Position numbers and translations under genes: made by a program
In this document: in pieces, positions 813 to 22,338 of the stretch
Layout: each line of letters starts with the position of its first letter
Numbering within the stretch: position 1 is the first letter of the stretch
UHGV virus genome: UHGV-0785299
Strand: one strand, 5' to 3'
DNA from: a virus
Length of the DNA stretch: 22,338 nucleotides
Notes under the pieces: generated by a model
Databases searched by the model: none
What the model was told of the DNA's origin: nothing
What the model saw: only the letters and a program-made list of their open reading frames with translations

Positions 813-1382
813 TTAGACAGGCTTAACACCGAGGAACTTGGCAATGTCAGCAGCCAGGTTTTTACCCTTGCTGATATCATGCTCCTTGCCGTTGCAGGTG
901 ACGATCACATACGGGTCATCTTCACCACCGAAGTTCACGGTGATCGTCTTGCCGATGCCAGGGATGCCAGAGTATTCGAACTCAGTACGACCACTCTTGC
1001 GAGACTTGCCAGCACCCAGTGCTTTGCCGATCATCTTGTCCATGTTCGCCAGTTCCTGAACATAGGATTCGGTCACCTGGCCTTTGTCGGCAGACTTGCC
1101 AAAGAAGAATTCGAAGCCGTCATAGACAGCAACGACTTCCTGACCTTGGGAGATACCGTGAGTCTGATCCGGAGTCAGCTTCACCTTGATGGTGTTGCCA
1201 TTGGTTAACTCCAGGTTATATACATCCGCCTGATTGTCAGGAGTGATCTGGGTCACGGTAGCGCCAGAGCACCACTGGGTGCCGTCAGCTTGCTTGGTGA
1301 TGGATACGGTCTTACCCTGGACACCAGCATGGGTCTGAGGTTTAGCGGCTTGTTCTTTAAAATATTCGATAAACGGTTTCAT
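813..1382 (-). CDS. candidate packaged internal head protein (T4 capsid-targeting-sequence-like N-terminus)
   Basis: 189-aa ORF; N-terminus MKPFIEYFKEQ resembles the T4 internal-protein capsid targeting sequence (MKTYQEFIAE type, recalled from memory); GAGGAG RBS 7 nt upstream of ATG; perfect late-promoter box 26 nt upstream. Confidence 0.5.
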   Translation of the reverse strand: MKPFIEYFKEQAAKPQTHAGVQGKTVSITKQADGTQWCSGATVTQITPDNQADVYNLELTNGNTIKVKLTPDQTHGISQGQEVVAVYDGFEFFFGKSADKGQVTESYVQELANMDKMIGKALGAGKSRKSGRTEFEYSGIPGIGKTITVNFGGEDDPYVIVTCNGKEHDISKGKNLAADIAKFLGVKPV

Positions 1383-1407
1383 CTTAATCTCCTCGGGGAT
1401 TTCAGTT

Positions 1408-1415
1408 ATTTATAA
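1408..1415 (-). promoter_or_regulatory. T4-type late promoter box TATAAATA (reads on minus strand)
   Basis: Plus-strand TATTTATA at 1408-1415 is TATAAATA on the minus strand, about 26 nt upstream of the ATG at 1382; a gp55-like late sigma gene is present in the same window. Confidence 0.55.
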
Positions 1416-4400: not shown

Positions 4401-4513
4401 AACACATCGCCTGCGTTCTTCTTACCCATGGTCAGCTCATACGGAGCGGAGTTGAACGCTTCGTCCAACTGATCTCTTTCCTGCATGAACTGGAGGAAAC
4501 TTAGCTTTGACAT
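1436..4513 (-). CDS. large hypothetical protein, 1025 aa; possibly a virion-packaged protein
   Basis: Uninterrupted 3078-nt ORF; GGGAGA RBS 7 nt upstream of ATG at 4513; Gly/Ser/Thr/Asn-rich central region; no nucleotide-binding or catalytic motif recognised. Functional guess rests on context (immediately upstream of the late-promoter/CTS-like gene) and a loose resemblance of the N-terminal ~150 aa to the T4 Alt N-terminal region, recalled from memory. Confidence 0.7.
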   Translation of the reverse strand: MSKLSFLQFMQERDQLDEAFNSAPYELTMGKKNAGDVFFTFIDEDEKEYRIQFYTPQGLGKSVRQVFIGQKRGSVYPDAIARFKNPMRVIASMIEATKQFMATPLGKTIDGFAVNFSKKALDRGMTLIPKIIRQSGLKQKLNVMDLTYAPVPDRGYVWLVRKGKDPAQVFDGPKMQGITWDDPDKVGDVPVQNSVDGVVGGTGQTIVVGVDFRSEMEDLDISVSGNDITVMDGRKLVVSFTDPETARIISGMKTPSAAITNFMQKTNPGRYTGNIKVNSTSTRSGKKYEFIASDSSGKQLFNLNVEDSRKTNLGTGAGSSSSVDNSNGWKLTSNGDQPMLLWAGKERGRMNTANIAPHYNEPGVYVGAYMNEKPVRGQSADFIARQLKLPQVPISILNDFTTASTKFWKGSQNSSDRNNPANIIGSGTAVIDAKRLGAREVNVERFKNGVRMRSQNGDVDISISDPDFSNAASATDAATASVVVKNGRYEGAINSKRKIARISNEQGTEWDIIGVNGETLVSIKLNKVSKSASDSTEGATSVDQLRDSGFIARVLGIIDTNVGLDTSILPGENIRRVGAGRYTTAGGLVIVVNFTNVLAGFVQYSVFSEIAEEENVAKGSARDVANAVIASIFEVAKTQYTGKWEISAVPTSAPYPIKAIRRSRGWGYVETANWTLTVSDAVLNRVKPGNTALLELIKEPPRGKHPLEIIPEKGDKTLMLKDRITGTIYGSIDLNAQGDDLVNSGTLKMPRNAMVFGETVNGMSITWSGVNFPKTGKYDGAVLTTNVTYYYDKGKVAITPMVSNKGRTLNNPKTYELTLKKDIVQAVIDEISSNMEMISRNMQTLKSTSYNPKQVFLDDISVDNNGSVLWRGYDMADRRTNDFMLGILSKETERLEKESSTAKKTGADLAAYADSIRDNAPKGRDLDWQIYASRDGQTLNVDWDITFRRNTTEGAYREFKAQIDRANQYLQTLYRDAKSKGYNPTEPNLMTLARAQQSDQWSQDNGESAYSEYEQSLGGNMQIKI

Positions 4514-7136: not shown

Positions 7137-9482
7137 TCAATCCTTCTTGATAACTTCAGTCAGGCCGTTTCGCAGGCCGTAGCGAATGTTGTGTTGGAAA
7201 TATTCCTGGAACTCCTGTTCGCGCTGGCTAATAACAAACAGGTTGTTCCCACCGAACTTATGCTTCAACATCTCAACCGATTCCTGCACCCCGCGCTCGC
7301 TCATGTTCTCAAGGATCTCGTCCAACACGAACAGGTTACATTGTACAGACGCCTTGAGGTTAGCCACATCGCGCAGAGCTAATGTCACAGCCAGGTTCAG
7401 ACGACTGCGCTGACCAGTAGACAGGGAGAAGATGCTCTGTCCTTTGCGGCCTGCTGCGCTCATGGTGATCTCAAAGGTATCGTCAACAACGATGTCCAAG
7501 AACATGTTGAGGGCTTCAAGATACTCGTTGATCTTGCTATTGAGGAATGGCAGATACAGAGCGATGATACGCGCCTTGGTCTGGTCATCTTTCAAGAAGA
7601 ACAGCAGGTGTTGTAAGTCCTGGAGTTCCTCATCTGCATCTTCACGGAGTTCATACAGAGCCTCCAGTTCACCTTCCAACGCAGCGATAGAGTTCTCCAG
7701 GTCGGTGGTAGGTGTTGGCTGTACAGCCAGTTTACGCTCCAGATCGGCAATAGACGCCACGAGAGGAGCACGACGGGCTTTCAGCTCGGCGATCTTATCA
7801 TCGACGGCTTTAATCCCGCTGACGGCATTCTCTCGCGTCTGTTGCAGCGACGCAGTGATGTCTTCAAAACGAACGTTCAGTGCCTTACGGATGTCAAGGA
7901 TCTTCTGTTGGCATTCACGGTTCAGCGAATTACACTCAATCGTGGCGGCATCATGAAAACCTTGAATATCACGGCGCAGCTGCTTGATGTTGTCGACGAT
8001 TTCGTCGGCCTGCTTGCGCATTGCATCCAGTTCAGCATCCAACATAGCAATGTCAGCAACCAGCTTGTCGTCCTGAGCCTTGTGGTCATCGATCAGGACA
8101 TTGATATCGGCGGTAACTTTGTCCAGTTGATCTAACTTCGACTGTAGTTCCTGGATCTGAGGATTGTACTCGCTTTCAATACGCGCCTTGGTATCGTCGG
8201 ACACCAGTTGGGTACATGTTGGGCAAGTCCCCATATCGTGGAAGCGCTTGATGGCCGACTGGTGGCCATCCATTTCGGTCTGGAACTTGATGCGGAAGTT
8301 CTCACCCTGTTGGCGACGCTGAATAGCAGCGTTCAGGGCATCCAGGTTTGCATTGCGCTCGGTGAGCAGGGTGTTCTTGCGTTCGGCCACTGTAAAGGCG
8401 CGGTCACGCAAGACCTGAAGATCATGCTCCGCAGTAGACACTTCGATGCGCTCATAATCGTCAGCCTTGTCCTGCGCGGCGTCCTTCACCGCCTGGACCT
8501 TGGTATCAAAGTCTTTCTTGACAGCCTCGATCTCTACCATGGATTCATCATGCAGGCGGCTTTCCACCGTCTTCATTTCCTGGGTGGCTTCAAACTCCAC
8601 AGCCGTGAGGCGGGTGCGCTCTTCATTCTGGGCGGCGATGTCAGCATCCAAGGAATTCAGGGCTTCCTGTTGCTGTACAAGGATATCGGCCGACCGCTGT
8701 TGGATCAGGGCGTTGGATTGCTCGATCTGCTGAAGCTGCGTCTTCTTGTTGGTGTGGTCAACAACCTTCAACGCACATTCATTCGCGATCGTGTCCAGCT
8801 TTTCGTTCGCTTTCTTGATGGATGCCTTGACATCTTCGTTCATCAGGCTGAAGAAGCCCAAGTCCCAGATAGTCTCCACCATGGCGCGGCGGTCGGCTGT
8901 GTACATCTCCGTGAACGGAATGAACTTCTCTTTGCCCAGCACCAGAGAGTTCTCAAACATCTTCTGGTCCACGCCGATGAGGTTCACGATGTACTTGTTC
9001 ATGTCGGCTTTGGCTGCTTCGTTATCGATCTGCAACCACTTGCCGTCCACCATCTGGTAGACTTCAACAAAGTCAGGTTTAATGCCACGGCGAACCTTCC
9101 ATTCGCTACCACGGCAGGCAAACTCTACCTCGCCCACACATTCCTTGCGGCTTTGTGAGTTAACCAGGCCTGCCTTCTTCTCCTTCTTACTGTACGTGTC
9201 GTTGTACAGTACGAAAAACAGCAGCCATACCAGCATCGTGGATTTACCCGCGCCGTTGTCATCAGACGTGACGAGGGTAGCCGGGTTGCGCTGATAATCA
9301 ATCTCCATGAATTGATTGCCGATGGAGCGGAAGTTCTTGGCGCGGCCTTTGCGGAAGGTCAGTTTGTGCGTAACGTTGTTACGCACTTCAAATGGGACTT
9401 CAACCTCGACCGGGGCGTCGGCTTCCTTCAAAAGATTACCAAATTTGGTCAAGATATCTGTGCTCTGAGTCATGTTATGCAT
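7137..9482 (-). CDS. Rad50/SbcC-family recombination ATPase (T4 gp46-like)
   Basis: 781 aa; Walker A TSDDNGAGKST near N-terminus; long coiled-coil middle with CPTC zinc-hook-like motif; ABC signature LSTGQRSR and Walker B LFVLDEIL near C-terminus; start overlaps stop of the Mre11-like gene. Confidence 0.9.
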   Translation of the reverse strand: MHNMTQSTDILTKFGNLLKEADAPVEVEVPFEVRNNVTHKLTFRKGRAKNFRSIGNQFMEIDYQRNPATLVTSDDNGAGKSTMLVWLLFFVLYNDTYSKKEKKAGLVNSQSRKECVGEVEFACRGSEWKVRRGIKPDFVEVYQMVDGKWLQIDNEAAKADMNKYIVNLIGVDQKMFENSLVLGKEKFIPFTEMYTADRRAMVETIWDLGFFSLMNEDVKASIKKANEKLDTIANECALKVVDHTNKKTQLQQIEQSNALIQQRSADILVQQQEALNSLDADIAAQNEERTRLTAVEFEATQEMKTVESRLHDESMVEIEAVKKDFDTKVQAVKDAAQDKADDYERIEVSTAEHDLQVLRDRAFTVAERKNTLLTERNANLDALNAAIQRRQQGENFRIKFQTEMDGHQSAIKRFHDMGTCPTCTQLVSDDTKARIESEYNPQIQELQSKLDQLDKVTADINVLIDDHKAQDDKLVADIAMLDAELDAMRKQADEIVDNIKQLRRDIQGFHDAATIECNSLNRECQQKILDIRKALNVRFEDITASLQQTRENAVSGIKAVDDKIAELKARRAPLVASIADLERKLAVQPTPTTDLENSIAALEGELEALYELREDADEELQDLQHLLFFLKDDQTKARIIALYLPFLNSKINEYLEALNMFLDIVVDDTFEITMSAAGRKGQSIFSLSTGQRSRLNLAVTLALRDVANLKASVQCNLFVLDEILENMSERGVQESVEMLKHKFGGNNLFVISQREQEFQEYFQHNIRYGLRNGLTEVIKKD

Positions 9483-10590
9483 CCAGTTTGTTCAGGCGTT
9501 GTTGGGCAGCATTATAGAAGTGCTCTGCTAGTTTACAGACATTGTCGGGGCGCTGAATGTTGTTCCCGGCGCGGATATCCTTCTTCAGGACTTCCACCGC
9601 ATCGGTCGCCACCATCTCTTCGGTGACCTCAACCTTCTCGGCAGCAACAGTAATCGTCCGGTCGATGAAGTTATAGTCAATACACTTGCATCGCTTCATC
9701 GCATCACAGAACTTTTCATAATGCTTAGCATTGTCGCGGTTCTGTACAATAACCTTAACGATTTGCCCTTCAATACCCAAGCCTGTGTTCAACCATTCCG
9801 GGTCGATCCAATTGCCTTCTTCATCAGAGGACAACTTGGTGTAATCATATTCCACATAGCGGAACAGCGTCTGATTCTCGGCGTTTGGGATAAAGATCTC
9901 ACCACCACGCATGTCGTCCACATAGAAGCCACGGTTGGTGCCGTCTTTGTAGTCTTCCCAGTTCAGGTGATACGGAGTCCCAATATATTGAATGTTACCT
10001 TCCATCGAACGGGTATGGAAATGGCCCGTGTCGACCCTGGTAAACTTGGAAAGCAGCGCAACGTCGATCTGACCGTGATCACAAGTAGAAGACTGGTACA
10101 TTTTGAACCCCGCCAGCTCCAGATGCGCAAAACAGTACTCGGCGTCTGTATCTTGTATCGCTTTAATAGACGCATCATAGTTCTCCTTGTTGATCCAAGG
10201 CAGCAGCAGAGTCTTGACACCCTCGATCATCACTTCGGTTGGTTCGCTGTAATAGCAGTACACATCCGGGTCGAGTTCGTTCAGGTAGGATGGCCAGTTG
10301 ATGCGGTTGGACTCTTCCAGGGTGATGTCATGGTTGCCCACGATGCCATTCCACTTGATACCAGCCGCTTTCAGCGCTGGAGTTAATTCATCCTTCAGCC
10401 AGTCTTTGTCGCGCCCGTACATGAATTTGCGGACATCAAACATATCACCGAACTGCCAGACCTCTTTGATATCAGAGTCGGCAAGTTCAGGAATGAAATA
10501 ATTGATGAGATAGTTCTTGATGAAGTCGCGAACGTATCGAGAACCATTACGGCTCCCGATATGCAGATCACCAATTTTAGCAATCGCCAT
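9475..10590 (-). CDS. Mre11/SbcD-family nuclease (T4 gp47-like)
   Basis: 371 aa; calcineurin-like phosphoesterase motifs GDLHIG, GDMFD, GNHD, GHFH in canonical order; immediately upstream of and overlapping the Rad50-like gene, as in T4 genes 47-46. Confidence 0.9.
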   Translation of the reverse strand: MAIAKIGDLHIGSRNGSRYVRDFIKNYLINYFIPELADSDIKEVWQFGDMFDVRKFMYGRDKDWLKDELTPALKAAGIKWNGIVGNHDITLEESNRINWPSYLNELDPDVYCYYSEPTEVMIEGVKTLLLPWINKENYDASIKAIQDTDAEYCFAHLELAGFKMYQSSTCDHGQIDVALLSKFTRVDTGHFHTRSMEGNIQYIGTPYHLNWEDYKDGTNRGFYVDDMRGGEIFIPNAENQTLFRYVEYDYTKLSSDEEGNWIDPEWLNTGLGIEGQIVKVIVQNRDNAKHYEKFCDAMKRCKCIDYNFIDRTITVAAEKVEVTEEMVATDAVEVLKKDIRAGNNIQRPDNVCKLAEHFYNAAQQRLNKLDA

Positions 10591-11318
10591 TATTCTGTTT
10601 CTCCTTCGGTTTCATCTAGTCCGAATTGGGTTTTGCCGAAGTCCTGATCTGAATTGTCTTCGGCCTGCGCTGTTACCGTATTCTTAGCCTGCGCCATGTA
10701 TTGAAGTATGCCTTTCGCAATCTTTTTATTCGATTCTGCGAGACGAGCTGCCTCCACCTTCTCTCGCTCCTTCTGCCTTTGAGCGTCCTTTTTGTTCTCA
10801 AAGTTGCCGATACGTTCACGGAAGTCCATGCCAATTCCTGTAGCATCAACAAAGACCTCTTGTTGGAAGTCGGGATCGTCTGCCAGGCCTGCGAACCCAC
10901 CCGCCTCTTCAAATGAGCGCAATTTAATGTACGTGTGCTCTTCTTCGATGTTCAGTTTACGAGCAAATGATCGATCAGCACACATGGTCACCCAAGAGAA
11001 GAAGTTGATCTTCCCTTTCTTTCCAATGTGTTCGACGTCAAATGTGTGGAGGTAGCGCAGGATATTGACTATTGCTTCAGAGACCATGTCTTCACGGAAG
11101 GGATAGTCGCGATAGTTGTAGCGGGTGCTCATCTTGGTGATGATGCGCTGGACCTGTAGAGCAACATAGTTGGGGATCTTTGGAAGCCTGGTGCCTTCAG
11201 CCAGAGCCTTCTTACGAGCAGGGATCCAATCACGAAGGATACTGATGACACGCTCGTTATCTTCGTCTGTGAAATATTTGACGACATTCTCCCCTCTGTC
11301 CACGAAGTTCATTCCCAT
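10590..11318 (-). CDS. late-transcription sigma factor (T4 gp55-like) with acidic C-terminal extension
   Basis: 242 aa; position directly upstream of the 47/46-like pair matches T4-like gene order; N-terminal half (ISILRDW..., RYNYRDY, ...LHTFD) resembles T4 gp55 from memory; perfect TATAAATA boxes occur in the window; GAGGGA RBS; 1-nt stop/start overlap with the gp47-like gene. Confidence 0.55.
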   Translation of the reverse strand: MGMNFVDRGENVVKYFTDEDNERVISILRDWIPARKKALAEGTRLPKIPNYVALQVQRIITKMSTRYNYRDYPFREDMVSEAIVNILRYLHTFDVEHIGKKGKINFFSWVTMCADRSFARKLNIEEEHTYIKLRSFEEAGGFAGLADDPDFQQEVFVDATGIGMDFRERIGNFENKKDAQRQKEREKVEAARLAESNKKIAKGILQYMAQAKNTVTAQAEDNSDQDFGKTQFGLDETEGETE

Positions 11319-11329
11319 TATGAAATCCC

Positions 11330-11857
11330 TCAGATACCGATAAATTCATCAAAAGATCCAACAACCTTCTTCACCGAGATATTGTCATTCTCAATCAGGA
11401 AGTTGCTGTCGTTTTTGGCTGCTGTAGCCCAGTCATCGGCAAGTTCGTTGCCTTCGTGTCCCGCATGACCCTTAACCCATTTTAGTTCAACTTCACAGAT
11501 TGAACAAACGAGATCATAGATTCTGAACAGATCTTTGATGAGTTCAACGTTCTTTTCTGGGAAACCCTGATACTCCCACTTCGTTCGCCATTCGGTGACA
11601 CTCTTGATGGCATATTGGCTGTCAGACCAAATTGTTGCCTTTGGTATTCTGCGCTCACCCTTTCCTGAGAATGCCCACAGTAGCTTCAATGCGTTGGTCA
11701 CGCCCAACAACTCGGCGATATTGTTAGTGGACGGGGGAGGTAGATGGCCGAAGAACACCTTCCATTGCATACCCGTTATTGGCCTGATAACAAATGCCCA
11801 GCCTGCGGCCTGGTTGGTCTTCGGGTTAGAACCCCCGTCAGAATAAATTTCTATCAT
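11330..11857 (-). CDS. rnhA: ribonuclease HI
   Basis: ORF 11330..11953; preferred start ATG at 11857 (MIEIYSDGGS...). Strong match to E. coli RNase HI catalytic segments: YSDGGS (TDGS), TNNIAELLG (TNNRMELMA), SDSQYA (TDSQYV), KWVKGHAGHEGNELAD (WVKGHAGHPENERCD). Confidence 0.8.
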   Translation of the reverse strand: MIEIYSDGGSNPKTNQAAGWAFVIRPITGMQWKVFFGHLPPPSTNNIAELLGVTNALKLLWAFSGKGERRIPKATIWSDSQYAIKSVTEWRTKWEYQGFPEKNVELIKDLFRIYDLVCSICEVELKWVKGHAGHEGNELADDWATAAKNDSNFLIENDNISVKKVVGSFDEFIGI

Positions 11858-11859
11858 GA

Positions 11860-11867
11860 TATAAATA
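11860..11867 (+). promoter_or_regulatory. T4-type late promoter box TATAAATA (plus strand)
   Basis: Exact TATAAATA at 11860-11867, 35 nt upstream of ATG 11903 with AGAGGA RBS in between; directly abuts the RNase HI start codon on the opposite strand. Confidence 0.55.
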
Positions 11868-11902
11868 TCCCAAACTGGTTTTATAGAAAGAGGAATGAAA
11901 CT

Positions 11903-12670
11903 ATGGCACCCCGCGCATATCGTTTCAGTCTCACCGCCCCGCAGATTGAGCAATTGCTCCTCTCTATCTATGATGCTATCAAGTCAGAAGATATCATCTA
12001 TGATTATGCTGCAGGTGGGACTGCTGGACAAGTCGCAGCAGCGTCTGCTGTCAAGAACATGTGGTTGAAGCTCAACGAGATGGTGACAGGCCAAGGTCTC
12101 AAAGATGCCATCAACGATGCAGAAGACAGCAACGTGTTCACCGACTATTATAAGTCTTTACTGGATCGCGAAGGTTGGAAATTTATTGGATCTCCAGCAG
12201 ATGAACTTCAGCGAGGCGACATCGATACCTCGAACTTCAAAGGTGGTGAGGTCATTCTACTTCAGAAGAACGCTTCGGGCAACCCAGAATTCCAATACTG
12301 GAAGCGAACCCCTGTTGCTGGGGGTGATCCTACCTTTGCATGGGCTTCGGTCTATGAAGGGAACTCTAATGATTCCAGCATAGAGATTCCCGTGGTTGGC
12401 ACCAGCGTACTCAAGGACATCCCCAAGGCACTCTTCCATATGATCGAGTTCAGAGTGCATGTCTACGATGAGACACTGGGTCATTGGCAAGACACCGACG
12501 GGAAGGTGGGGTATCGTGGCGAGGATCTGATCTACAGTGTATACAACCATATTCAGACCAAACCTCTCGCCACCATTGACTTCAGCCAAGATACGGACAA
12601 TATGACGGTTTCTGTGACGTCGTTGGAACCGAATGTCAAGTGCCATCTGTCCTTCGTTGCGGGTTACTAA
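11903..12670 (+). CDS. hypothetical late protein (255 aa), possibly structural
   Basis: ORF 11744..12670; preferred start ATG 11903 (MAPRAYRFSLTAPQ...) because it follows the late-promoter box and RBS and avoids overlap with RNase HI coding sequence; stop overlaps the stop of the convergent helicase gene (CTAA); no motif recognised. Confidence 0.6.
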   Translation: MAPRAYRFSLTAPQIEQLLLSIYDAIKSEDIIYDYAAGGTAGQVAAASAVKNMWLKLNEMVTGQGLKDAINDAEDSNVFTDYYKSLLDREGWKFIGSPADELQRGDIDTSNFKGGEVILLQKNASGNPEFQYWKRTPVAGGDPTFAWASVYEGNSNDSSIEIPVVGTSVLKDIPKALFHMIEFRVHVYDETLGHWQDTDGKVGYRGEDLIYSVYNHIQTKPLATIDFSQDTDNMTVSVTSLEPNVKCHLSFVAGY

Positions 12671-14385
12671 ACCTCAAACACGGCATCAGTGAACCAAGCG
12701 GGGAAGAACTCTGGGTTGCGCATCATAAGTGATTCAAAAGAAGAATCAAGGATGTACGTCGCAGCCCAGTCATTCACGCCCCTGACCGAACGCCCACACA
12801 TCTGAACGATACGCAGTACCGCCATCCTGAAGTACGCCGATGGGTCCACACTGTTGACGTGGGCCACCAGAGGATCACCAAGGTAATCGTATGGCACCTT
12901 GATCAAGATCTGAAATCTGCTATAATCGCCTTTGAAGTCATACCCCTCTTCCATGGCCGGACTGGCGATGACACAAGGCGTCTTCGTCCTGAACGCGTGT
13001 TCCATGATGTCCATCAGAGCCTTACGAGTACGAGGAACGTGAATCATATTCCGGTACTTACTGAACTTTTGTAGAGCCAGGGCGCGGTCATAACTGACTG
13101 TGTGAATGATGCCAGACTGCCCAGGGTGGAACGCGATAATTTCATCCACGTATTCAGCCAGCTTCTTCATCTCGTAGTCACCCATGTTCGCTGTCATCTT
13201 CATGATGGGCATGTAGTTGACTTTCCGGTTCTCAATCGGGATAGGGTTGCCGATCTGTATCTTGTGGTACTCACCCTCGGGGATACCCAGTGACCGGGCG
13301 TACGAGTCAATCCCACAAATGGTAGCCGACATGTGAACGTGGTAGTCACCCTTGCGGAACAGGCCGAACTGGGATACATCAGAGGCGATGACAGGCTTGA
13401 ACTGAATCATACCCTTGTCCTTCTCCTGTACGATGAAAGTGCTGGCGTTGGTCTGCCCCATGATACCACAGTAGTCGCTGAGGTTGTGAAGAGTATCAAT
13501 AATATCAGACAGCTTCATCACCTGGGCTTCAGTCAGGCGCTCGTCCTCTACCAGTTCCTCAAGAGTTTCCAACAGGGCTTCAACCTTGCCGTGCAGTTCA
13601 TCAAATATCGCATGCATCTCACCAGACAGGGAATACAGCTTGCCCAATTCATAGTTCTCTGTGCGGATGATGATATCCTTGATGGTCTCCACGATAGGCA
13701 CTCCCTCAGGGATCGTAAGCAACCCTTCCACAGCCTTTATGTTGTATTCCATGATAGTATGCTCTAGGAGCGTAGAGGGCATTTTATGACACTCGTCAAG
13801 GATCAGCATATCGGCACGGTTTTCCGGCTTCATACAAATCGTCGTACACATCTCCACCATCATGGCGGCGTTGGTGCAGCGCAGGGAGGAGACGTCGGTC
13901 CACTGTCGACGCGCCTGAACATATGGACAACGATTCTTACTACAGTGGCCATCACGGCATGCCATACGGCACTGAATGGCGTTGTAGTATAGGTCGGGGC
14001 TGATGTGGCAACGGTAGTTCTTCTTGCCCTTCAGGATGTCTATCGCCACGGCTTTCTCTGCTGCATACTGATCCTGTAAACCTTTGGTCGGCGTCGTGAT
14101 AGACGTGCGGAACTGACCATACGGGTTGTGCTCAAGAACCAAATGGCGAAGCACGTTATGGATGGTAGTGCCGATGAGGGATTTACCTACACCAGTCGGA
14201 GCCTCGATGATCACGTGTTTGAATTTCTTATTCACAAGGGCATCAATGGCTTCAACGATGCATTCCATCTGGCCGGGGTTGGCGGTGTCATACGGGAAGA
14301 ACTCAGTGGCAAGAGACTTGATGCGGTCTATGCTGACTGGTCCGACGCCGTCAAGCGCCTTGGTATATTGGTTGAATGCTGTCAC
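12667..14385 (-). CDS. DinG/XPD-like superfamily-2 helicase with Fe-S cluster cysteines
   Basis: 572 aa; GTG start with AGGAGGAA RBS; Walker A IEAPTGVGKSLIG; DEAH-type box LILDECHKM; Cys cluster CHISPD ... CRMACRDGHCSKNRCP between them; HMSATICG (SATL-like motif) and GRSVRG near C-terminus. Confidence 0.75.
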   Translation of the reverse strand: MTAFNQYTKALDGVGPVSIDRIKSLATEFFPYDTANPGQMECIVEAIDALVNKKFKHVIIEAPTGVGKSLIGTTIHNVLRHLVLEHNPYGQFRTSITTPTKGLQDQYAAEKAVAIDILKGKKNYRCHISPDLYYNAIQCRMACRDGHCSKNRCPYVQARRQWTDVSSLRCTNAAMMVEMCTTICMKPENRADMLILDECHKMPSTLLEHTIMEYNIKAVEGLLTIPEGVPIVETIKDIIIRTENYELGKLYSLSGEMHAIFDELHGKVEALLETLEELVEDERLTEAQVMKLSDIIDTLHNLSDYCGIMGQTNASTFIVQEKDKGMIQFKPVIASDVSQFGLFRKGDYHVHMSATICGIDSYARSLGIPEGEYHKIQIGNPIPIENRKVNYMPIMKMTANMGDYEMKKLAEYVDEIIAFHPGQSGIIHTVSYDRALALQKFSKYRNMIHVPRTRKALMDIMEHAFRTKTPCVIASPAMEEGYDFKGDYSRFQILIKVPYDYLGDPLVAHVNSVDPSAYFRMAVLRIVQMCGRSVRGVNDWAATYILDSSFESLMMRNPEFFPAWFTDAVFEV

Positions 14386-14435
14386 TTTCTTCCTCCTATG
14401 GGATTCGCCTTTAGTTTAACCGATTCCCAGGAACG

Positions 14436-14470
14436 AAAAAGCCGGAGTACAATGCTCCGGCTTTCTCTTT
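14436..14470. terminator. bidirectional intrinsic terminator hairpin (GCCGGAG/CTCCGGC) flanked by A5 and T-rich tracts
   Basis: 7-bp GC-rich stem 14441-14447/14455-14461 with 7-nt loop; AAAAA upstream and TTTCTCTTTT downstream on plus, giving a U-tract in either direction; sits between the HU-like gene stop and the helicase start. Confidence 0.6.
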
Positions 14471-14513: not shown

Positions 14514-14792
14514 TTACTTGCCGTTGGCAGCGTTCTTCAGACCTTCGCCCACTTTGAATTTCACAACGTTTTTCGCCGCGATCTGAATGGTCTGGCCGTT
14601 CAGAGGGTTGCGACCTTCACGCGCTTCTTGGTGTTTCACTTCGAACGCACCGAAGCCGACCAGCTGTACAGATGCGCCTGCAGCAACTGCAGTTTTAACA
14701 CCGTCGATAAAGGATGCCACTACTTTCTCCGCTTCGCCTTTGGTGATATTCTGGGTCGAAGCAATGTGGGCAACAAATTCAGTACGATTCAT
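14514..14792 (-). CDS. HU/IHF-family histone-like DNA-binding protein
   Basis: 92 aa; GFGAFEVKHQEAREGRNPLNGQTIQIAAKNVVKFK is the classic HU beta-arm region; GGAG RBS 9 nt upstream of ATG. Confidence 0.85.
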   Translation of the reverse strand: MNRTEFVAHIASTQNITKGEAEKVVASFIDGVKTAVAAGASVQLVGFGAFEVKHQEAREGRNPLNGQTIQIAAKNVVKFKVGEGLKNAANGK

Positions 14793-14917
14793 CTGGATTT
14801 CTCCGTTGGGTTAATGTTTACTTTCATGTTCACTACAAGAGGGCTACAGTTTAACTAACAAATTTTATTGAATAAAGCGGAATTAATAGCCTTTCACCAC
14901 GATTACAGTCTTTGTGC

Positions 14918-15357
14918 TCATATTTGCTCCGTTTGTTTCTCAACGCCCAGTGCGGCGGCATAGATACCACGAGCCATGCGATCATCACAAAATCCATACG
15001 TGAATAATCCAGCAATGGCATCAAGGCGTTCCTGTGTTGGTGTGACAGGCACAGACACCGTTTGAACTTCAGTCTTTTCGGTGCCTTCCGGTTTCATCAA
15101 GACCTCCATTTCTTGACGACTAACAACAATGGTTTCTACCTTATCTTCATCGATCAACATTTCGTTCAGAAGATCGTATCCCAACACTTGTGTATCGCCG
15201 ATATATGTCTTCGCGTTCAGTTGTGCTTCGATACTTAACACCCTCTGAGCTGTAAGGCCACCAGAGGAGAACGGTACTGGATAGAAGGCGGAACGCACTT
15301 GGGCACACCCATTTACGCTGTAACGAACCAGCAAGACATCACACCATACGCCAGCCA
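14918..15357 (-). CDS. hypothetical protein (146 aa)
   Basis: ORF 14918..15376; preferred start ATG 15357 (MAGVWCDV...) with GGAGGTG RBS 5 nt upstream, 2 nt after the stop of the upstream gene. Confidence 0.55.
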
Positions 15358-15359
15358 TA

Positions 15360-16022
15360 TTACACCTCCACCGCATGAGACTTCAGGAGTTCATCAATCT
15401 CTTTCTGCCCCATGTATGAGAACGGGGTGCGCTGGTAGAACGCCCAGAGTACTAACTGGACAACAGCACGGGAACGGGTTTCGGCCGTCATCACCAGGCC
15501 ACTGAAATGAGGAGACTCAGCTGTCCATTGTATCTCTTCGCCCAGGTCTTGATTACAGGTCACCGAGATGCGGAACTTGTTGCACAGATTGTCGACTTCT
15601 TTGTACGCATCGGTAGACACACGAAGTTGTTCCGCATGTGCCCACGGAGTTGTGACGATTCTTTCACCCAACGTCTTTTCTGAAACGAACCAATCAATAG
15701 ATTGGGTAAACTCGCTAAAATGGTCGATACGATAAATACAGTCTCCCCCTTCCATAGAACGCATGGCATGATAGCGAGCGTCAATTTCATTGTTGTGCAT
15801 AGCGTTGAAGTCGATGAACACGCGACGCGCCAGCACAACATCTTCTGGTTGAAGTGCCAGGAAATCGTTCAGGCGGCTATAATGGAGGATATTGGAACCG
15901 TCGTGGCCACGTGTGCAATATGCGTAATAGCTACCGATACGGGTGTGGGTAATATAAGACAACGGGGCGAAGAATAATCCGTCAGGATCAGGACCGACGA
16001 TAATAGAATAAAGTTTTTCCAT
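15360..16022 (-). CDS. hypothetical protein (220 aa)
   Basis: ORF 15360..16121; preferred start ATG 16022 (MEKLYSIIVGPD...) which avoids overlap with the upstream gene; start choice uncertain; no motif recognised. Confidence 0.5.
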   Translation of the reverse strand: MEKLYSIIVGPDPDGLFFAPLSYITHTRIGSYYAYCTRGHDGSNILHYSRLNDFLALQPEDVVLARRVFIDFNAMHNNEIDARYHAMRSMEGGDCIYRIDHFSEFTQSIDWFVSEKTLGERIVTTPWAHAEQLRVSTDAYKEVDNLCNKFRISVTCNQDLGEEIQWTAESPHFSGLVMTAETRSRAVVQLVLWAFYQRTPFSYMGQKEIDELLKSHAVEV

Positions 16023-16078
16023 GATATAGTCACTCAAATGAAAGGGCAGCTTTATGATAAGCCGCCCGAGGTTATTGA

Positions 16079-16945
16079 TTATTGGAAATCGCCAACATAC
16101 ATGTTCAGCTTGTCGTCCCAATTCAGAACGACACGGATCGTTCCAGTATCTTCTGGGAAGGTCAGTTTGTCACACATGGCGCGATTAACATAAGTCCCGC
16201 TCTGGTTGACGTTGTAGTCCTTGCCTTGCATGATACCAAAACGCTTGAAGTCGCGAGTGACCATCATGTTCAGAGTTGTCCAAGGGATTGTATCGCGCAG
16301 GGCTTTGCACAGGACGATCTTGCCATCCGACCTGAACGACACAAACAGCTCGTTGGCGACACGACGGCGAGTAGGCGGTTCAAGTTCACGCAGGGAAATG
16401 AATTGTGAATTCTTTACCTTTTCTGCCAGCGCCTGTACTTCTGCTGGATCCGGCTTGAACGGCTCCACTGAAGAGTCAGACTTCATCACAACGTCACCCT
16501 TGCGCTTCTCAACCAATTGCTCCACAGCCTTTTGACTCACGGGAGGGAGGTATTTGGACTTAGGAACAACCGCTGGCTTGATGACAGGGCTTGCATCTGG
16601 TTTCGCCTTTGGAGTACTCCGAGCCGCACGCAGCTTTTCCTGGGCTTGTAGAATGCGCTCTTGACGAGAAAGCGGAGCCTTTGGGGTGATCTTCGTACTG
16701 AAGTCAGAAACGCCGACCCAGTCACCCTGGTCGTTGCGCTTGGCGACCAGGGTCAGTTTGTGGATGATACCCTGAAGTTTGCTCTCACGTAAGTTGTCGG
16801 CATACCAGAACTTCGCGCCCATCTCGAACTTCTCGGCGAAGATCACGCGAGCGTCTTCGTGTACCAACATAACTTTGGCTGCGTTGGGGGCAAAAGCCTT
16901 ATTCTTTTCGATAATCGCCGCAGCGATTGTTTTGGTCAGGAGCAT
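16079..16945 (-). CDS. hypothetical protein (288 aa), basic Lys/Pro-rich central linker
   Basis: ORF 16079..16948 (GTG) with ATG at 16945; central low-complexity segment STPKAKPDASPVIKPAVVPKSKYLPPVSQK between two globular-looking halves. Confidence 0.6.
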   Translation of the reverse strand: MLLTKTIAAAIIEKNKAFAPNAAKVMLVHEDARVIFAEKFEMGAKFWYADNLRESKLQGIIHKLTLVAKRNDQGDWVGVSDFSTKITPKAPLSRQERILQAQEKLRAARSTPKAKPDASPVIKPAVVPKSKYLPPVSQKAVEQLVEKRKGDVVMKSDSSVEPFKPDPAEVQALAEKVKNSQFISLRELEPPTRRRVANELFVSFRSDGKIVLCKALRDTIPWTTLNMMVTRDFKRFGIMQGKDYNVNQSGTYVNRAMCDKLTFPEDTGTIRVVLNWDDKLNMYVGDFQ

Positions 16946-19935: not shown

Positions 19936-19954
19936 GGTATAGTTCCTGCCTTCC

Positions 19955-20194
19955 TTGGTGAAGCCAGAAGACACTGTGAGCGTTCTGTATTTCTCCTCCA
20001 AAGGCGACTTTGGTACTGTGTTCGCTGGCCGCCAGATCAATGCAGCATCCGACCTGAGCGAAATCAACAAACTGATCGACCGTTTCCTGCAACCATCCGG
20101 CTGTACTGGTTTCGTTGAGCCATTGAAACTGGCGATGGATACTGCTCGTGGCCTGAGAAGCCTGGCTACGTCACAACCTGGCGTTCATGACTGA
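19955..20194 (+). pseudogene. fragment of a vWA-domain gene (frame-disrupted)
   Basis: TTG-initiated ORF encoding VSVLYFSS...GCTGFVEPLKLAMDTARGL...QPGV, which looks like the central strands and helices of a von Willebrand A domain; the expected next motif (FMTDGYDN) is encoded immediately downstream but in another frame (20184-20207), and frame-2 stops occur at 20192 and 20201. Confidence 0.45.
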
Positions 20195-20317
20195 CGGGTA
20201 TGACAACTGCTGGCGTACCACGAAATTCTACTGGTTGCTGAGACCCTGCCATTTGCTTTCGATAACATTACTTTCATCGAATATGGCTGGTACTGTAACC
20301 GAGAACTGCTGGCGCAG

Positions 20318-21487
20318 ATGGCCGAACTCTCTGGTGCTACTCACGTGTTTGCCGAAGGTCAGACCGAATACCAGACCGAACTGGAAAACGTGCTGAAGTC
20401 ATCAGTGCCGAAGGTGGTTGTTGATGTGCCTCTGCTATACACCCACGCCATCTATGTTGAAAACGGCGTAGCAACTGTTCTGGCGGTACAGCCGGATGAA
20501 GACCATCCTATCGGCCACGTGAGCATCCCTGAGAGCGTCACCAAGCTGTGGGTTGTAAACCCTAACATGATCGACCAGATGGATAGCCTGACGGACATCC
20601 AGGCGGCATATGTGCTGGCGTTCTACGGTGTACACACTATGGACGCAGATCTGGTTTGGGCTGCGCTGAAGAAGACGGGCGACGTTCGCTTCATCAAACA
20701 GTACAGCAACTGCTTCACCAAGCAGGACTACTCCAACATCAAGAACGATCTGGTACAGGCGATTGTTGACGACCAGCTGCGCGGCGTTGACGGTATTGAC
20801 TATGACCTGGTTCCAGCTGAAGATGCGACCACCGTCGTTGATGTGCTGACGTACCTGGCTGAAGCTGGTGTGCCTGTTGCTACCAAGCATCCGATGTTCT
20901 CCTACAAGAGCATCGGGCGCGGTACTGTGCAGAAAACCGACGACACCGAAGACAAGCTGGCAGAACAGATCGCGAATGCTCAGTCCAAAGAAGAGCGTAA
21001 AGCCCTGGCTCTCAAGCTGGCAGAGCACGAAGAGTGGAACCCGACGTTCGAACCTACCAACGATCTGGGTGTTGTGCCAATCAGTGATTTGGTCTATAAC
21101 TCCGAGCGCCCGAACATCAGTGTGCGTACAATTCAACACGGTACTGTGGCTGTGCCTGAATTCGCACAGAAGAAGTTTGGCCTGCCTGAAGAACTGGATA
21201 CTTTCCAGTGGCGCAACTACACCATCGTCAAAGACGGTATCATTAACGTGAAGACTCTGCCGTTCAAGGCTGATATCGAAGTCGTGCATAAGCTGATCGA
21301 AATGGGCGTCCACGTGTTTGGTGGTCCAGAAGTGTTTGTCCTGAACCTGGAAAGCGTACCGCTGGTCAACCGCGCCATGGTCAAGAACATCAGTGCTGCT
21401 CAGTTCTTTGCGGATAATGTCCGTCTGGAAGCCCTGAAAAGGCAAGCAGAAGGTGCTGAAGTTCTATCGAGACGCCCTGGTTGGTAA
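20318..21487 (+). CDS. central part of the vWA-domain protein (open frame actually extends upstream to 20204)
   Basis: 389-aa ORF in the same frame as the 19955 fragment; protein-like translation continues upstream of the first ATG back to 20204; ends 5 codons after an A4 run where a +1 shift joins it to the next ORF. Confidence 0.6.
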   Translation: MAELSGATHVFAEGQTEYQTELENVLKSSVPKVVVDVPLLYTHAIYVENGVATVLAVQPDEDHPIGHVSIPESVTKLWVVNPNMIDQMDSLTDIQAAYVLAFYGVHTMDADLVWAALKKTGDVRFIKQYSNCFTKQDYSNIKNDLVQAIVDDQLRGVDGIDYDLVPAEDATTVVDVLTYLAEAGVPVATKHPMFSYKSIGRGTVQKTDDTEDKLAEQIANAQSKEERKALALKLAEHEEWNPTFEPTNDLGVVPISDLVYNSERPNISVRTIQHGTVAVPEFAQKKFGLPEELDTFQWRNYTIVKDGIINVKTLPFKADIEVVHKLIEMGVHVFGGPEVFVLNLESVPLVNRAMVKNISAAQFFADNVRLEALKRQAEGAEVLSRRPGW

Positions 21488-22058
21488 GGGTAACGCCAAA
21501 GGCCTGGCAGTACAGTACGGCGCTGAGGCGGCCGAGTTCCTGTCCTCCTACGGCATCCGCGATTACGGCTTCTCACCGAAGACTGAGACCAAAGAGTCTA
21601 CCGACTTCTACATGAGCCGTGAGCTGAACGTGAAGATCGCCGGGGCGTCTTCACTACCGAGCATCGCGGCAGTACAGAAGAAGATCGCAGAGAACAAGAA
21701 ACTCAATGCTGGTGACTTGTTCATCGCCAATGCTCTGAAAGAGTACGAAGCATTCGTGAAGTCTCCTATGATCACTGCCGTGCCTGAAGCCTTACAGAAA
21801 CAGCTGATCGAAAACTGGATCGACGCTGCTGCCAAGGCGGCCATCACCGAAGTCCGTGCCCTGAACAAGACACTGTCTAAAGTGGTGTATGGTATCGTTG
21901 CTGGCCACGGCTGGTTCACCGACCTCGACCTGGAAGAGTCCACCATGGAAGTTGAAGTGGATGGCGTGAAGTACAAGGTCACTGCCGAACTGACAGAGAA
22001 AGAAAATCAAAATCTAATCCAACGGGCGGGGCAACCCGCCTTTCTTTGGGAGAAGTAG
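21453..22058 (+). CDS. C-terminal part of the same protein (reached by a +1 shift at 21437-21440)
   Basis: GTG-initiated ORF; skipping one A of the AAAA run at 21437-21440 fuses ...NVRLEALK to GKQKVLKFYRDALVGKGNAKG... without a stop; last codons overlap a terminator hairpin. Confidence 0.55.
   Translation: MLKFYRDALVGKGNAKGLAVQYGAEAAEFLSSYGIRDYGFSPKTETKESTDFYMSRELNVKIAGASSLPSIAAVQKKIAENKKLNAGDLFIANALKEYEAFVKSPMITAVPEALQKQLIENWIDAAAKAAITEVRALNKTLSKVVYGIVAGHGWFTDLDLEESTMEVEVDGVKYKVTAELTEKENQNLIQRAGQPAFLWEK
22025..22047 (+). terminator. intrinsic terminator (GGCGGG/CCCGCC stem, GCAA tetraloop, TTTCTTT tract)
   Basis: Perfect 6-bp GC stem 22025-22030/22035-22040 with GNRA-type loop followed by a T-rich run; overlaps the last codons of the upstream ORF and precedes the RBS GGGAGAAG of the next gene. 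Confidence 0.55.
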
Positions 22059-22059
22059 C

Positions 22060-22338
22060 ATGAGCAGTAAACCAACATATGTTGAAGTCATGCGTCATCT
22101 GGCTCAGTACGCCACTGACAATCTGAATATGGATCTGTGGCGTGACGATGACAAGCGCAAATTGCTGGACGACGTGGCATCTCAGAACGAGGACGCCCTG
22201 GACAAGCTGGCTGGTCTCCGTACCAAGAAAGACCTCGGCGGTGACGAACTGGATGCCATCGAAATCGTAATGGAACTAGAAGAAGAGTTTCAGGTCGAAA
22301 TCGACGACGGTTGGCTGGGTAGTAAAGGTGATGACCCG
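22060..22338 (+). CDS. acyl-carrier-protein-like protein with Glu at the expected phosphopantetheine-attachment Ser position (C-terminus runs off the window)
   Basis: ATG 22060 with GGGAGAAG RBS; hand translation ...KKDLGGDELDAIEIVMELEEEFQVEIDDG closely parallels the ACP core [27 protein letters not shown] (recalled from memory), with the attachment Ser replaced by Glu. Confidence 0.6.
   Translation, partial: MSSKPTYVEVMRHLAQYATDNLNMDLWRDDDKRKLLDDVASQNEDALDKLAGLRTKKDLGGDELDAIEIVMELEEEFQVEIDDGWLGSKGDDP

What the first reader, a model, noticed from the sequence alone, without database searches (positions are those of the whole stretch)
12667..14385. DinG/XPD-like Fe-S helicase in a T4-like replication/recombination neighbourhood
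The protein has Walker A, a DECH box, a multi-cysteine cluster between them and an SAT motif, the hallmark layout of Fe-S helicases of the XPD/DinG family. It is bracketed by a bidirectional terminator (14436-14470) and by a convergent late gene whose stop overlaps its own stop, so late transcription from the 11860 promoter would run antisense into it. Its role (replication restart, R-loop removal, or anti-defence) is open.
Basis: partly seen in the sequence, partly recalled or inferred. Interest (0 to 1): 0.5.

Follow-up and report, generated by a model that had tools for sequence, protein, structure and literature searches.

The report
Phage XPD/DinG-type four-cysteine helicase gene
This is the ordinary, already-annotated "DNA helicase" core gene of Ackermannviridae phages, a compact XPD/DinG-type helicase with four invariant cysteines, and it probably helps replication forks past RNA and protein obstacles.

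Summary
Window 12667-14385 (-) encodes a 572-aa protein with Walker A (GVGKS, aa 65), DECH (197), SAT (353), motif VI (528-536) and eight cysteines between Walker A and DECH.

Four of these cysteines (C126, C139, C148, C153) are invariant in 119 homologues. C148 and C153 align with the E. coli DinG cluster ligands C199 and C205, including the CP(Y/F)xxAR signature. The AlphaFold model (pLDDT 91) has only XPD/DinG/CasDinG/Hna chains as its top 44 PDB matches.

The window comes from an Agtrevirus/Kuttervirus-like Ackermannviridae phage (99% nt identity to published genomes). There the gene is annotated "DNA helicase", "ATP-dependent helicase" or "dinG" (PHROG 2488). It fails the curated cut-offs for DinG, YoaA, Rad3 and Csf4, so it belongs to a separate, virus-restricted branch of the superfamily with a very short Fe-S module (C-x12-C-x8-C-x4-C).

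The flanking claims also hold: a hairpin terminator at 14438-14464, a TATAAATA late promoter at 11860, and a convergent late gene whose stop overlaps the helicase stop (CTAA).

Two complete genomes carrying this helicase lack any Dda homologue, and an RNase HI gene lies next to it. I infer an accessory 5'-3' helicase that clears R-loops, D-loops or RNA polymerase. Novelty and interest are low.

The parts
12667..14385 (-). Helicase CDS, 572 aa, GTG start, TAG stop. XPD/DinG-superfamily SF2 helicase (PHROG 2488).
14392..14397 (-). Shine-Dalgarno AGGAGG, 6 nt before the GTG start
   Evidence: read directly from the sequence
14179..14202 (-). Motif I / Walker A, APTGVGKS (aa 62-69). P63, G65, G67 and K68 are invariant.
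13885..14028 (-). Short Fe-S-type insert (aa 120-167) between two HD1 strands. Invariant C126, C139, C148 and C153 give the pattern C-x12-C-x8-C-x4-C. The CPYxxAR signature is at aa 153-159.
13786..13797 (-). Motif II, DECH (aa 197-200). D, E and H are invariant; C is present in 110/119.
13381..13755 (-). Arch-like insertion (about aa 211-335): three long helices plus short strands in the AF2 model. Boundaries are approximate.
   Evidence: secondary structure; whole-chain fold match
13321..13329 (-). Motif III, SAT (aa 353-355), within the conserved HMSATICG
12778..12804 (-). Motif VI, QMCGRSVRG (aa 528-536). Q528, G531, R532 and R535 are invariant.
14438..14464 (.). GC-rich hairpin terminator between the HU-like gene and the helicase. 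It has a T5 tail on the minus strand and a weaker T-rich tail on the plus strand.
   Evidence: annotated as a terminator in Marshall
11860..11867 (+). T4-type late promoter box TATAAATA, 36 nt upstream of the late gene's ATG
11903..12670 (+). Convergent late gene (255 aa, PHROG 3833, annotated 'virion structural protein' in relatives). Its stop overlaps the helicase stop at 12667-12670.
11330..11857 (-). RNase HI (PF00075) gene, the next gene downstream on the helicase's strand; a possible functional partner in handling RNA:DNA hybrids
14514..14792 (-). HU-like DNA-binding protein gene, immediately upstream on the same strand and separated from the helicase by the terminator hairpin

Best explanation
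The gene encodes a compact, stand-alone member of the XPD/DinG (Rad3) family of SF2 helicases. It belongs to a virus-restricted branch of that family, PHROG 2488.

Shown here:
- All helicase motifs are intact and conserved.
- A 48-residue insert in motor domain 1 carries four invariant cysteines at the position of the XPD/DinG [4Fe-4S] domain.
- A short helical Arch-like insertion follows motif II.
- The predicted fold matches DinG and XPD.
- The gene lies on the strand of the replication/recombination genes (gp46/47-like nuclease, gp55, RNase HI, HU).

Inferred:
- The four cysteines bind a [4Fe-4S] cluster delivered by the host Isc/Suf machinery.
- The enzyme translocates 5'-3' on single-stranded DNA, like every characterised family member.
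- It acts as an accessory helicase of the phage replisome. It would unwind R-loops and D-loops and push RNA polymerase off the template, cooperating with the adjacent RNase HI. This is the job Dda does in T4, and these phages lack Dda.
- Late in infection, transcripts from the TATAAATA promoter at 11860 run through the 255-aa late gene and continue antisense across the helicase gene until the hairpin at 14438-14464. That would help switch the helicase off.

My confidence is about 0.9 for the family assignment. It is about 0.75 for Fe-S rather than Zn, about 0.4 for the specific Dda-like/R-loop role, and about 0.5 for real antisense read-through.
For: Family assignment:
- Pfam Helicase_C_2, ResIII and DEAD all score above their cut-offs. 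PHROG 2488 'DNA helicase' scores E 3.5e-259.
- DinG and YoaA are the best NCBIfam hits. In the PDB profile search, DinG scores 2e-18, F. magna DinG 4.5e-18 and XPD 2.5e-13.
- The AF2 model has pLDDT 91 and pTM 0.89. In Foldseek, DinG 6fws scores E 6e-27 (TM 0.65) and the top 44 hits are all from this superfamily.

Cysteines:
- C126, C139, C148 and C153 are invariant in 119/119 sequences and near-invariant in 136 divergent representatives.
- C148 and C153 align to EcDinG C199 and C205, with 'CP[YF]..ARR' identity.
- C126 and C139 align to the cysteines in 'NKVC...NDCE' of F. magna DinG.

Replication context is conserved across lineages:
- Vibrio K444: clamp loader ... helicase ... RNase H, gp55, gp47, gp46.
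- Tedavirus: clamp loader ... helicase.
- Acinetobacter SH-Ab 15599: the DexA homologue lies directly upstream.
- Rhizobium TM40: primase, exonuclease, helicase, DNA polymerase.

Dda-like role:
- The closest genome, PQ306799 (150 of 152.5 kb searched), has three annotated helicases: gp41/DnaB-like, UvsW-like and this one. It has no Dda homologue (best tblastn E 0.64).
- The complete SH-Ab 15599 genome has no Dda homologue either (best E 2.4).
- Record counts in the phage collection fit this. 713 Escherichia and 49 Salmonella records carry Dda. 32 Escherichia and 165 Salmonella records carry this helicase.
- Literature: DinG is a 5'-3' SF2 helicase that prefers D-loops and R-loops. The dinG defect is suppressed by RNase H overexpression. 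T4 Dda was the first helicase shown to remove RNA polymerase ahead of a fork (PMC2770101).
- The neighbouring gene is a genuine RNase HI (PF00075, 88.7 bits).

Antisense read-through.
Against: - No experiment exists on any member of this phage family. None was found in five literature searches, and the 2025 DinG review has no phage subgroup.
- Metal identity cannot be read from sequence. The same review notes that CCCC motifs can bind Zn.
- The tools do not expose the model's coordinates, so I could not check the cysteine geometry.
- The absence of Dda was tested directly in only two genomes, both classified as Ackermannviridae, so the anticorrelation has few independent data points.
- UvsW, which is present, can also remove R-loops in T4. 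The R-loop role may therefore be redundant.
- RNase HI adjacency is lost in SH-Ab 15599, where RNase H lies about 48 kb away.
- The dexA/helicase gene order in SH-Ab 15599 is the reverse of dda/dexA in T4.
- No promoter for the helicase itself was identified. A terminator lies directly upstream, so its expression class is assumed, not shown.
Confidence: 0.6

Rival explanations
1. Recombination helper rather than conflict remover. The helicase would work with the gp46/47-like (Rad50/Mre11-type) nuclease and UvsX/UvsY in recombination-dependent replication, for example by processing ends or by dismantling or migrating D-loops.
For: The gene is syntenic with gp47/gp46, gp55 and RNase H in Agtrevirus, Kuttervirus and Vibrio K444. 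DinG prefers D-loops as well as R-loops in vitro (PMC2770101). T4 Dda also stimulates UvsX-driven branch migration (from my own knowledge, not checked here), so this rival overlaps with the best explanation.
Against: Linkage to gp46/47 is lost in Tedavirus, SH-Ab 15599 and Rhizobium TM40. There the helicase sits beside the clamp loader, DexA, primase or polymerase genes. UvsW, the dedicated branch-migration helicase, is already present.
Confidence: 0.25
2. Same helicase, but the four cysteines hold a structural zinc ion rather than a [4Fe-4S] cluster. The 28-residue cysteine span would be a zinc-stabilised wedge, not a redox-active domain.
For: The cysteine span (C-x12-C-x8-C-x4-C, 28 residues) is much shorter than in DinG, where C120 to C205 spans 86 residues. 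The DinG review notes that CCCC motifs occur in Zn fingers and that some 'FeS' domains may bind Zn.
Against: The third and fourth cysteines and the following CP(Y/F)xxAR motif align residue for residue with the Fe-S ligands C199 and C205 of E. coli DinG. There are no CxxC knuckles of the kind typical of zinc ribbons. All four cysteines are conserved across a very divergent family, as expected for an obligatory cofactor.
Confidence: 0.12
3. Anti-defence or defence-related helicase. It would be a phage copy of the CasDinG/Hna type of helicase, used to dismantle host interference complexes (for example CRISPR R-loops) or to exclude competing elements.
For: The strongest PADLOC match is a profile labelled 'typeIV_DinG, CAS-IV-A associated' (PDLC01439, 173.7 bits, full length). 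CasDinG and Hna structures are among the fold matches.
Against: - The canonical Csf4 models score only 11.7 bits (TIGR03117, cut-off 400) and 25.5 bits or less.
- CasDinG lacks the cluster cysteines, whereas this protein keeps all four.
- No cas genes occur in the window or in the annotated reference genome.
- The gene is a conserved core gene inside replication modules in bacterial and haloarchaeal viruses.
- PDLC01439 may simply be a broad DinG profile. I could not inspect its membership.
Confidence: 0.05

Closest known systems
E. coli DinG (PDB 6fwr/6fws) and bacterial DinG-like helicases
   Same: - SF2 core with Walker A, DE(A/C)H, SAT and motif VI.
- Helicase_C_2 C-terminal domain.
- A four-cysteine insert between motifs Ia and II, with the last two cysteines and the CP(Y/F)xxAR motif aligned to C199 and C205.
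- An Arch insertion after motif II.
- Best fold match (E 6e-27, TM 0.65) and best profile match.
   Different: - About 16% identity; 572 aa against 716 aa.
- The cysteine span is 28 residues against 86.
- The conserved second ligand (C139) lies 4 residues before the position that aligns to DinG C194.
- It scores 66.8 bits against the DinG equivalog cut-off of 598.
- It is virus-encoded and not SOS-regulated.
Archaeal/eukaryotic XPD (Rad3), e.g. Thermoplasma XPD 4a15/9p55 and human XPD in TFIIH
   Same: Four-domain plan (HD1, Fe-S, Arch, HD2) and similar overall size to archaeal XPD (about 550-620 aa). Fold match E 1e-20 to 4.5e-24; profile match 2.5e-13.
   Different: TIGR00604 rad3 scores 23.3 bits against a cut-off of 247. 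The Pfam DEAD_2 and HBB domains typical of XPD are not significantly matched (HBB E 0.072). The Arch and Fe-S domains are shorter. There are no TFIIH-type partners.
Type IV CRISPR-associated DinG (Csf4/CasDinG)
   Same: Compact stand-alone DinG-like helicase of about 600 aa carried on mobile elements. Fold match E about 2e-21. One PADLOC 'typeIV_DinG' profile matches at 173.7 bits.
   Different: CasDinG has a pseudo-Fe-S domain without the cysteines, whereas this protein keeps all four. TIGR03117 scores 11.7 bits against a cut-off of 400. There is no cas neighbourhood.
T4 Dda (SF1B 5'-3' accessory helicase)
   Same: This is a proposed functional analogy only. Both would be non-replicative 5'-3' helicases in a T4-type replication gene set. 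Dda removes RNA polymerase ahead of forks. Genomes with this helicase lack Dda. In one genome the helicase neighbours a DexA homologue, as dda does in T4.
   Different: There is no sequence or fold relationship (SF1B against SF2 XPD-like), and Dda has no metal cluster. The analogy is inferred, not tested.

Membership tests
XPD/DinG (Rad3) superfamily of SF2 helicases | Conserved SF2 motifs I (GxGKS/T), II (DExH), III (SAT) and VI (QxxGRxxR) | tested here: met
   GVGKS at 65, DECH at 197, SAT at 353 and QMCGRSVRG at 528-536. The key residues are invariant in 73-119 homologues.
XPD/DinG (Rad3) superfamily of SF2 helicases | Family-specific C-terminal motor domain (Pfam Helicase_C_2, PF13307) | tested here: met
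   46.7 bits against a gathering cut-off of 25.3, E 4.8e-12.
XPD/DinG (Rad3) superfamily of SF2 helicases | Four conserved cysteines in an insert between motifs Ia and II (Fe-S domain) | tested here: met
   C126, C139, C148 and C153 are 119/119. In 136 divergent representatives the counts are 136, 126, 128 and 136. C148 and C153 align to EcDinG C199 and C205.
XPD/DinG (Rad3) superfamily of SF2 helicases | Actual binding of a [4Fe-4S] cluster | not testable with these tools
   This needs spectroscopy or metal analysis.
XPD/DinG (Rad3) superfamily of SF2 helicases | Arch domain inserted in HD1 after motif II, and the overall four-domain fold | tested here: met
   In the AF2 model (pLDDT 91), aa 211-335 form a helical and beta insertion. 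The top 44 Foldseek PDB hits are all XPD, DinG, CasDinG or Hna, with TM up to 0.69. The Arch boundaries are approximate.
XPD/DinG (Rad3) superfamily of SF2 helicases | 5'-3' translocation polarity on ssDNA | not testable with these tools
   Biochemical assay required.
DinG proper (NCBIfam NF008729 equivalog) and YoaA (NF053712) | Score above the curated equivalog cut-off | tested here: not met
   DinG scores 66.8 against 598, and YoaA scores 55.3 against 680.
Rad3/XPD subfamily (TIGR00604) | Score above the curated cut-off | tested here: not met
   23.3 against 246.95.
Type IV CRISPR CasDinG (Csf4, TIGR03117) | Score above the curated cut-off, a cas (csf) gene neighbourhood, and a pseudo-Fe-S domain lacking the cysteines | tested here: not met
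   11.7 against 400. There are no cas genes in the window or the reference genome. All four cysteines are present. A separate PADLOC profile, PDLC01439, does match at 173.7 bits, but it has no curated cut-off and its membership is unknown.
PHROG 2488 (phage 'DNA helicase') | Full-length match to the family profile | tested here: met
   E 3.5e-259, 862 bits, aa 19-572 against profile positions 3-579 of 579.

The most novel reading that the evidence does not exclude
PHROG 2488 is a virus-specific, minimal XPD-type Fe-S helicase whose four ligands span only 28 residues. In Ackermannviridae and several other large-myovirus lineages it has taken over the accessory 5'-3' helicase role that Dda plays in T4, working with the adjacent RNase HI to clear R-loops and RNA polymerase. 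If so, phage DNA replication would depend on the host's Fe-S cluster biogenesis and would be sensitive to oxidative or iron stress.
Probability: 0.3. Interest if true: 0.45.

Novelty: already known. Interest (0 to 1): 0.22.

Why it matters
This is mainly housekeeping. It upgrades a generic "DNA helicase" annotation in more than 400 phage genomes to [quoted passage not shown]. It also names the four ligand candidates (C126, C139, C148, C153).

If the inferred role is right, there are three modest consequences:
- Ackermannviridae, which are widely used for biocontrol and diagnostics, would rely on host Fe-S assembly for efficient replication.
- The family would provide a very small natural Fe-S domain for studying what the cluster does in XPD-like helicases.
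- It would be a case of non-orthologous replacement of T4 Dda.

None of this would surprise a specialist.

Tried and rejected
- **Pairwise ligand assignment.** Pairwise alignment to E. coli DinG suggested C143 as the second ligand. I rejected this because C143 is conserved in only 42/119 homologues, while C139 is invariant.
- **Named subfamilies.** DinG, YoaA, Rad3, Csf4 and the DnaQ-DinG fusions all fall far below their curated cut-offs, so the protein is not filed under any of them.
- **Degenerate or inactive helicase (like sDinG).** Rejected. All ATPase and DNA-binding motifs are invariant, and sDinG lacks the Fe-S domain entirely.
- **Cellular origin or prophage gene.** A scan of one genome for each of 185,579 bacterial and archaeal species found only 7 loci, all on MAG contigs. 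An "E. coli" protein record 99% identical to this one is presumably phage DNA in an assembly. The family is effectively viral. The scan patterns were strict, however, so distant cellular relatives would have been missed.
- **Published work.** I searched for studies of phage-encoded DinG/XPD helicases and for Ackermannviridae transcriptomes. Nothing specific turned up.
- **Promoter for the helicase.** I looked for a sigma-70-like promoter between the terminator and the start codon. None was found on the minus strand.
- **RNA genes.** Rfam and tRNA scans of the window found nothing.
- **Cysteine geometry.** I could not measure it in the AF2 model because coordinates are not exposed to the scripting tool.
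- **Exhaustive Dda/PHROG 2488 co-occurrence table.** Not done. The search tool lists at most 60 of the 498 and 2186 matching records.
Full report
**Source and setting.**
The helicase region is 99% identical in nucleotide sequence to several published Ackermannviridae genomes. Examples are Salmonella phage vB_CECAV_050 (Agtrevirus), Escherichia phages ZQ1 and LHE287, and Salmonella phages Marshall and Maynard. In those records the gene is annotated "DNA helicase" or "ATP-dependent helicase", and in Klebsiella phage PWKp5 it is "dinG".

The surrounding genes were identified with PHROGs and Pfam:
- gp46/gp47-like SbcC/SbcD nuclease, 7137-10590 (-)
- gp55 late sigma factor, 10590-11318 (-)
- RNase HI (PF00075), 11330-11857 (-)
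- a 255-aa late gene, 11903-12670 (+)
- the helicase, 12667-14385 (-)
- an HU-like protein, 14514-14792 (-)

So "T4-like replication/recombination neighbourhood" is a fair description. The phage itself is a ViI-like Ackermannviridae member, not a T4-like phage proper.

**Observation check.**
It starts with GTG at 14385, and AGGAGG lies 6 nt upstream. Marshall annotates a CDS of the same length, aligned end to end with the window ORF.

The motifs are GVGKS (aa 65), DECH (197), SAT (353) and QMCGRSVRG (528-536). Eight cysteines lie between Walker A and DECH.

The hairpin at 14438-14464 is real and stable. Its canonical orientation is the minus strand, where a T5 tail follows it. There it terminates the HU-like gene's transcript just upstream of the helicase, and Marshall annotates it that way. 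The plus-strand tail (CTCTTTTG) is weaker.

TATAAATA at 11860-11867 is one of two copies in the window, against 0.23 expected. It sits 36 nt before the late gene's ATG, exactly as in Marshall.

The two stop codons overlap in the sequence CTAA at 12667-12670. No other terminator-like site lies on the plus strand between 12670 and 14438. Antisense read-through of the helicase gene by late transcripts is therefore a reasonable inference, but it has not been shown. I found no Ackermannviridae transcriptome in the literature.

**What the protein is.**
- Pfam gives Helicase_C_2 (46.7 bits, cut-off 25.3), ResIII and DEAD.
- PHROGs gives a full-length hit to phrog_2488, "DNA helicase" (E 3.5e-259).
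- The best NCBIfam hits are DinG (E 1.3e-18) and YoaA (E 4.8e-15). All are far below the equivalog cut-offs, and Rad3 and Csf4 are also far below theirs.
- Against PDB sequences, the single protein hits E. coli DinG best. A 73-sequence profile hits E. coli DinG (2e-18), F. magna DinG (4.5e-18), Thermoplasma XPD (2.5e-13), then human and yeast XPD, FANCJ and CHL1.
- An AlphaFold2 model built from the alignment is confident (pLDDT 91, pTM 0.89).
- Its top 44 Foldseek matches in the PDB are all XPD, DinG, CasDinG or Hna chains. The best is DinG 6fws, E 6e-27, TM 0.65.

Membership of the XPD/DinG superfamily is secure. Membership of any named subfamily is not.

**The cysteines.**
I aligned the query with its 118 full-length homologues, which reach down to about 35% identity. 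C126, C139, C148 and C153 are invariant (119/119). C143 is present in only 42/119, and C170, C180 and C184 vary.

In 136 more divergent 50%-cluster representatives, C126 and C153 remain 136/136, C139 is 126 and C148 is 128. Most exceptions have displaced cysteines in poorly aligned loops.

C148 and C153 align to the known cluster ligands C199 and C205 of E. coli DinG. The ligand numbering comes from my own knowledge, and the printed alignment reproduces those positions. The following CP(Y/F)xxAR motif is shared. C126 and C139 align with cysteines in F. magna DinG.

The module is unusually short: C-x12-C-x8-C-x4-C inside a 48-residue insert between two HD1 strands. In DinG the cysteines span 86 residues.

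Whether the module holds [4Fe-4S] or Zn cannot be decided here. The DinG review cautions that CCCC motifs can be zinc sites. The ligand-for-ligand alignment and the absence of CxxC knuckles favour Fe-S.

**Distribution.**
The profile finds 4323 50%-identity clusters at E < 1e-30 in 1.84 billion representatives. Among sequenced phages, tblastn finds the helicase in 498 records. These include:
- Kuttervirus, Agtrevirus, Limestonevirus, Taipeivirus-like Klebsiella phages and Tedavirus
- about 157-kb Vibrio phages
- Acinetobacter SH-Ab 15599
- Rhizobium and Agrobacterium phages
- HF2-like haloarchaeal viruses
- partial matches in Bacillus phage G and Lak phages

Delftia PhiW-14 appears among the protein hits. 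A scan of one genome for each of 185,579 bacterial and archaeal species found only seven loci, all on MAG contigs. The branch is therefore effectively viral. The 2025 review of bacterial DinG-like proteins does not include it.

**Likely function.**
In every lineage examined the gene sits among replication genes. The closest complete genome has three annotated helicases: gp41/DnaB-like, UvsW-like (UvsW_N domain) and this one.

T4 Dda has no homologue in 150 of the 152.5 kb of that genome (best E 0.64). It has none in the complete genome of Acinetobacter phage SH-Ab 15599 either (best E 2.4). In SH-Ab 15599 the helicase directly follows a DexA homologue, and dexA and dda are neighbours in T4.

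Record counts point the same way. 713 Escherichia and 49 Salmonella records carry Dda. 32 Escherichia and 165 Salmonella records carry this helicase.

E. coli DinG is a 5'-3' helicase that prefers R-loops and D-loops, and its in vivo defect is suppressed by RNase H overexpression. T4 Dda was the first helicase shown to clear RNA polymerase ahead of a fork (PMC2770101). In this phage a genuine RNase HI gene is the next gene on the helicase's strand.

I therefore propose that the protein is the phage's accessory 5'-3' helicase for R-loops, D-loops and transcription complexes, and so a functional stand-in for Dda. This is inference at roughly 0.4 confidence. The main alternative is a role in gp46/47- and UvsX-dependent recombination, and the two overlap.

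An anti-defence role is unlikely. The one notable pointer is a 173.7-bit full-length match to a PADLOC profile labelled "typeIV_DinG, CAS-IV-A associated". However, the canonical Csf4 models barely match, CasDinG lacks the cysteines, and no cas genes are present.

**Verdict.**
The feature is nevertheless an ordinary, already-catalogued core gene of a well-sequenced phage family. What this analysis adds is the identity of the four conserved ligand candidates, the compactness of the module, the viral restriction of the branch, and a testable Dda-replacement/RNase HI-partner hypothesis. Interest is low (0.22). The most novel reading that the evidence does not exclude has a probability of about 0.3 and would merit about 0.45.

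Noticed in passing
window 19945-22338: This end segment aligns in reverse orientation to both reference genomes. It matches vB_CECAV_050 80332->77998 at 90% identity and the corresponding Marshall region at 86%. About 0.8 kb of the reference, including the acyl-carrier-protein gene region, is missing at the junction. The tail-protein gene (phrog_2426, 736 positions) is split into two plus-strand ORFs (20318-21487 and 21453-22058) and lacks its first ~170 profile positions. This is either an inversion with gene disruption or an assembly artefact at the contig end.
   Followed up: partly
window 1407-1414 (-), upstream of ORF 813-1382 (-): The only other TATAAATA in the window lies about 25 nt upstream of a 189-aa ORF of unknown function (phrog_4048). 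That suggests a second late gene, this one on the minus strand.
   Followed up: no
window 14885-15972: A variable accessory region lies upstream of the HU-like gene. About 960 bp (15010-15972) has no counterpart in Marshall, and 14885-15125 is replaced by 46 bp in vB_CECAV_050. It contains ORFs 14918-15376 and 15360-16121 (phrog_5397, phrog_36147 and phrog_5426, all of unknown function).
   Followed up: partly
window 11318-11330 versus L001 6918-7652: Phage Marshall carries a homing-endonuclease gene inserted between gp55 and RNase H. That gene is absent from this window and from vB_CECAV_050.
   Followed up: no
window 1436-4513 (-): A 1025-aa ORF of unknown function (phrog_3867) has an internal segment (3557-3934) that does not align to the otherwise 96%-identical vB_CECAV_050 gene. 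It may be a hypervariable or mosaic region.
   Followed up: no
window 11744-11902 (+) and 11858-11953 (-): The mechanical ORF lists extend both the late gene (from 11744) and the RNase H gene (TTG at 11953) well beyond their likely starts (ATG 11903 and ATG 11857). The late promoter therefore lies in the short divergent gap between the two real genes.
   Followed up: partly
PADLOC profile PDLC01439 against the helicase (aa 23-552): There is an unexpectedly strong (173.7 bits, E 1.5e-51) full-length match to a profile labelled 'typeIV_DinG; CAS-IV-A; associated', while the canonical Csf4 profiles score 25 bits or less. This could mean that some type IV-associated DinG helicases belong to this viral branch, or simply that the profile is a broad DinG model.
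   Followed up: partly
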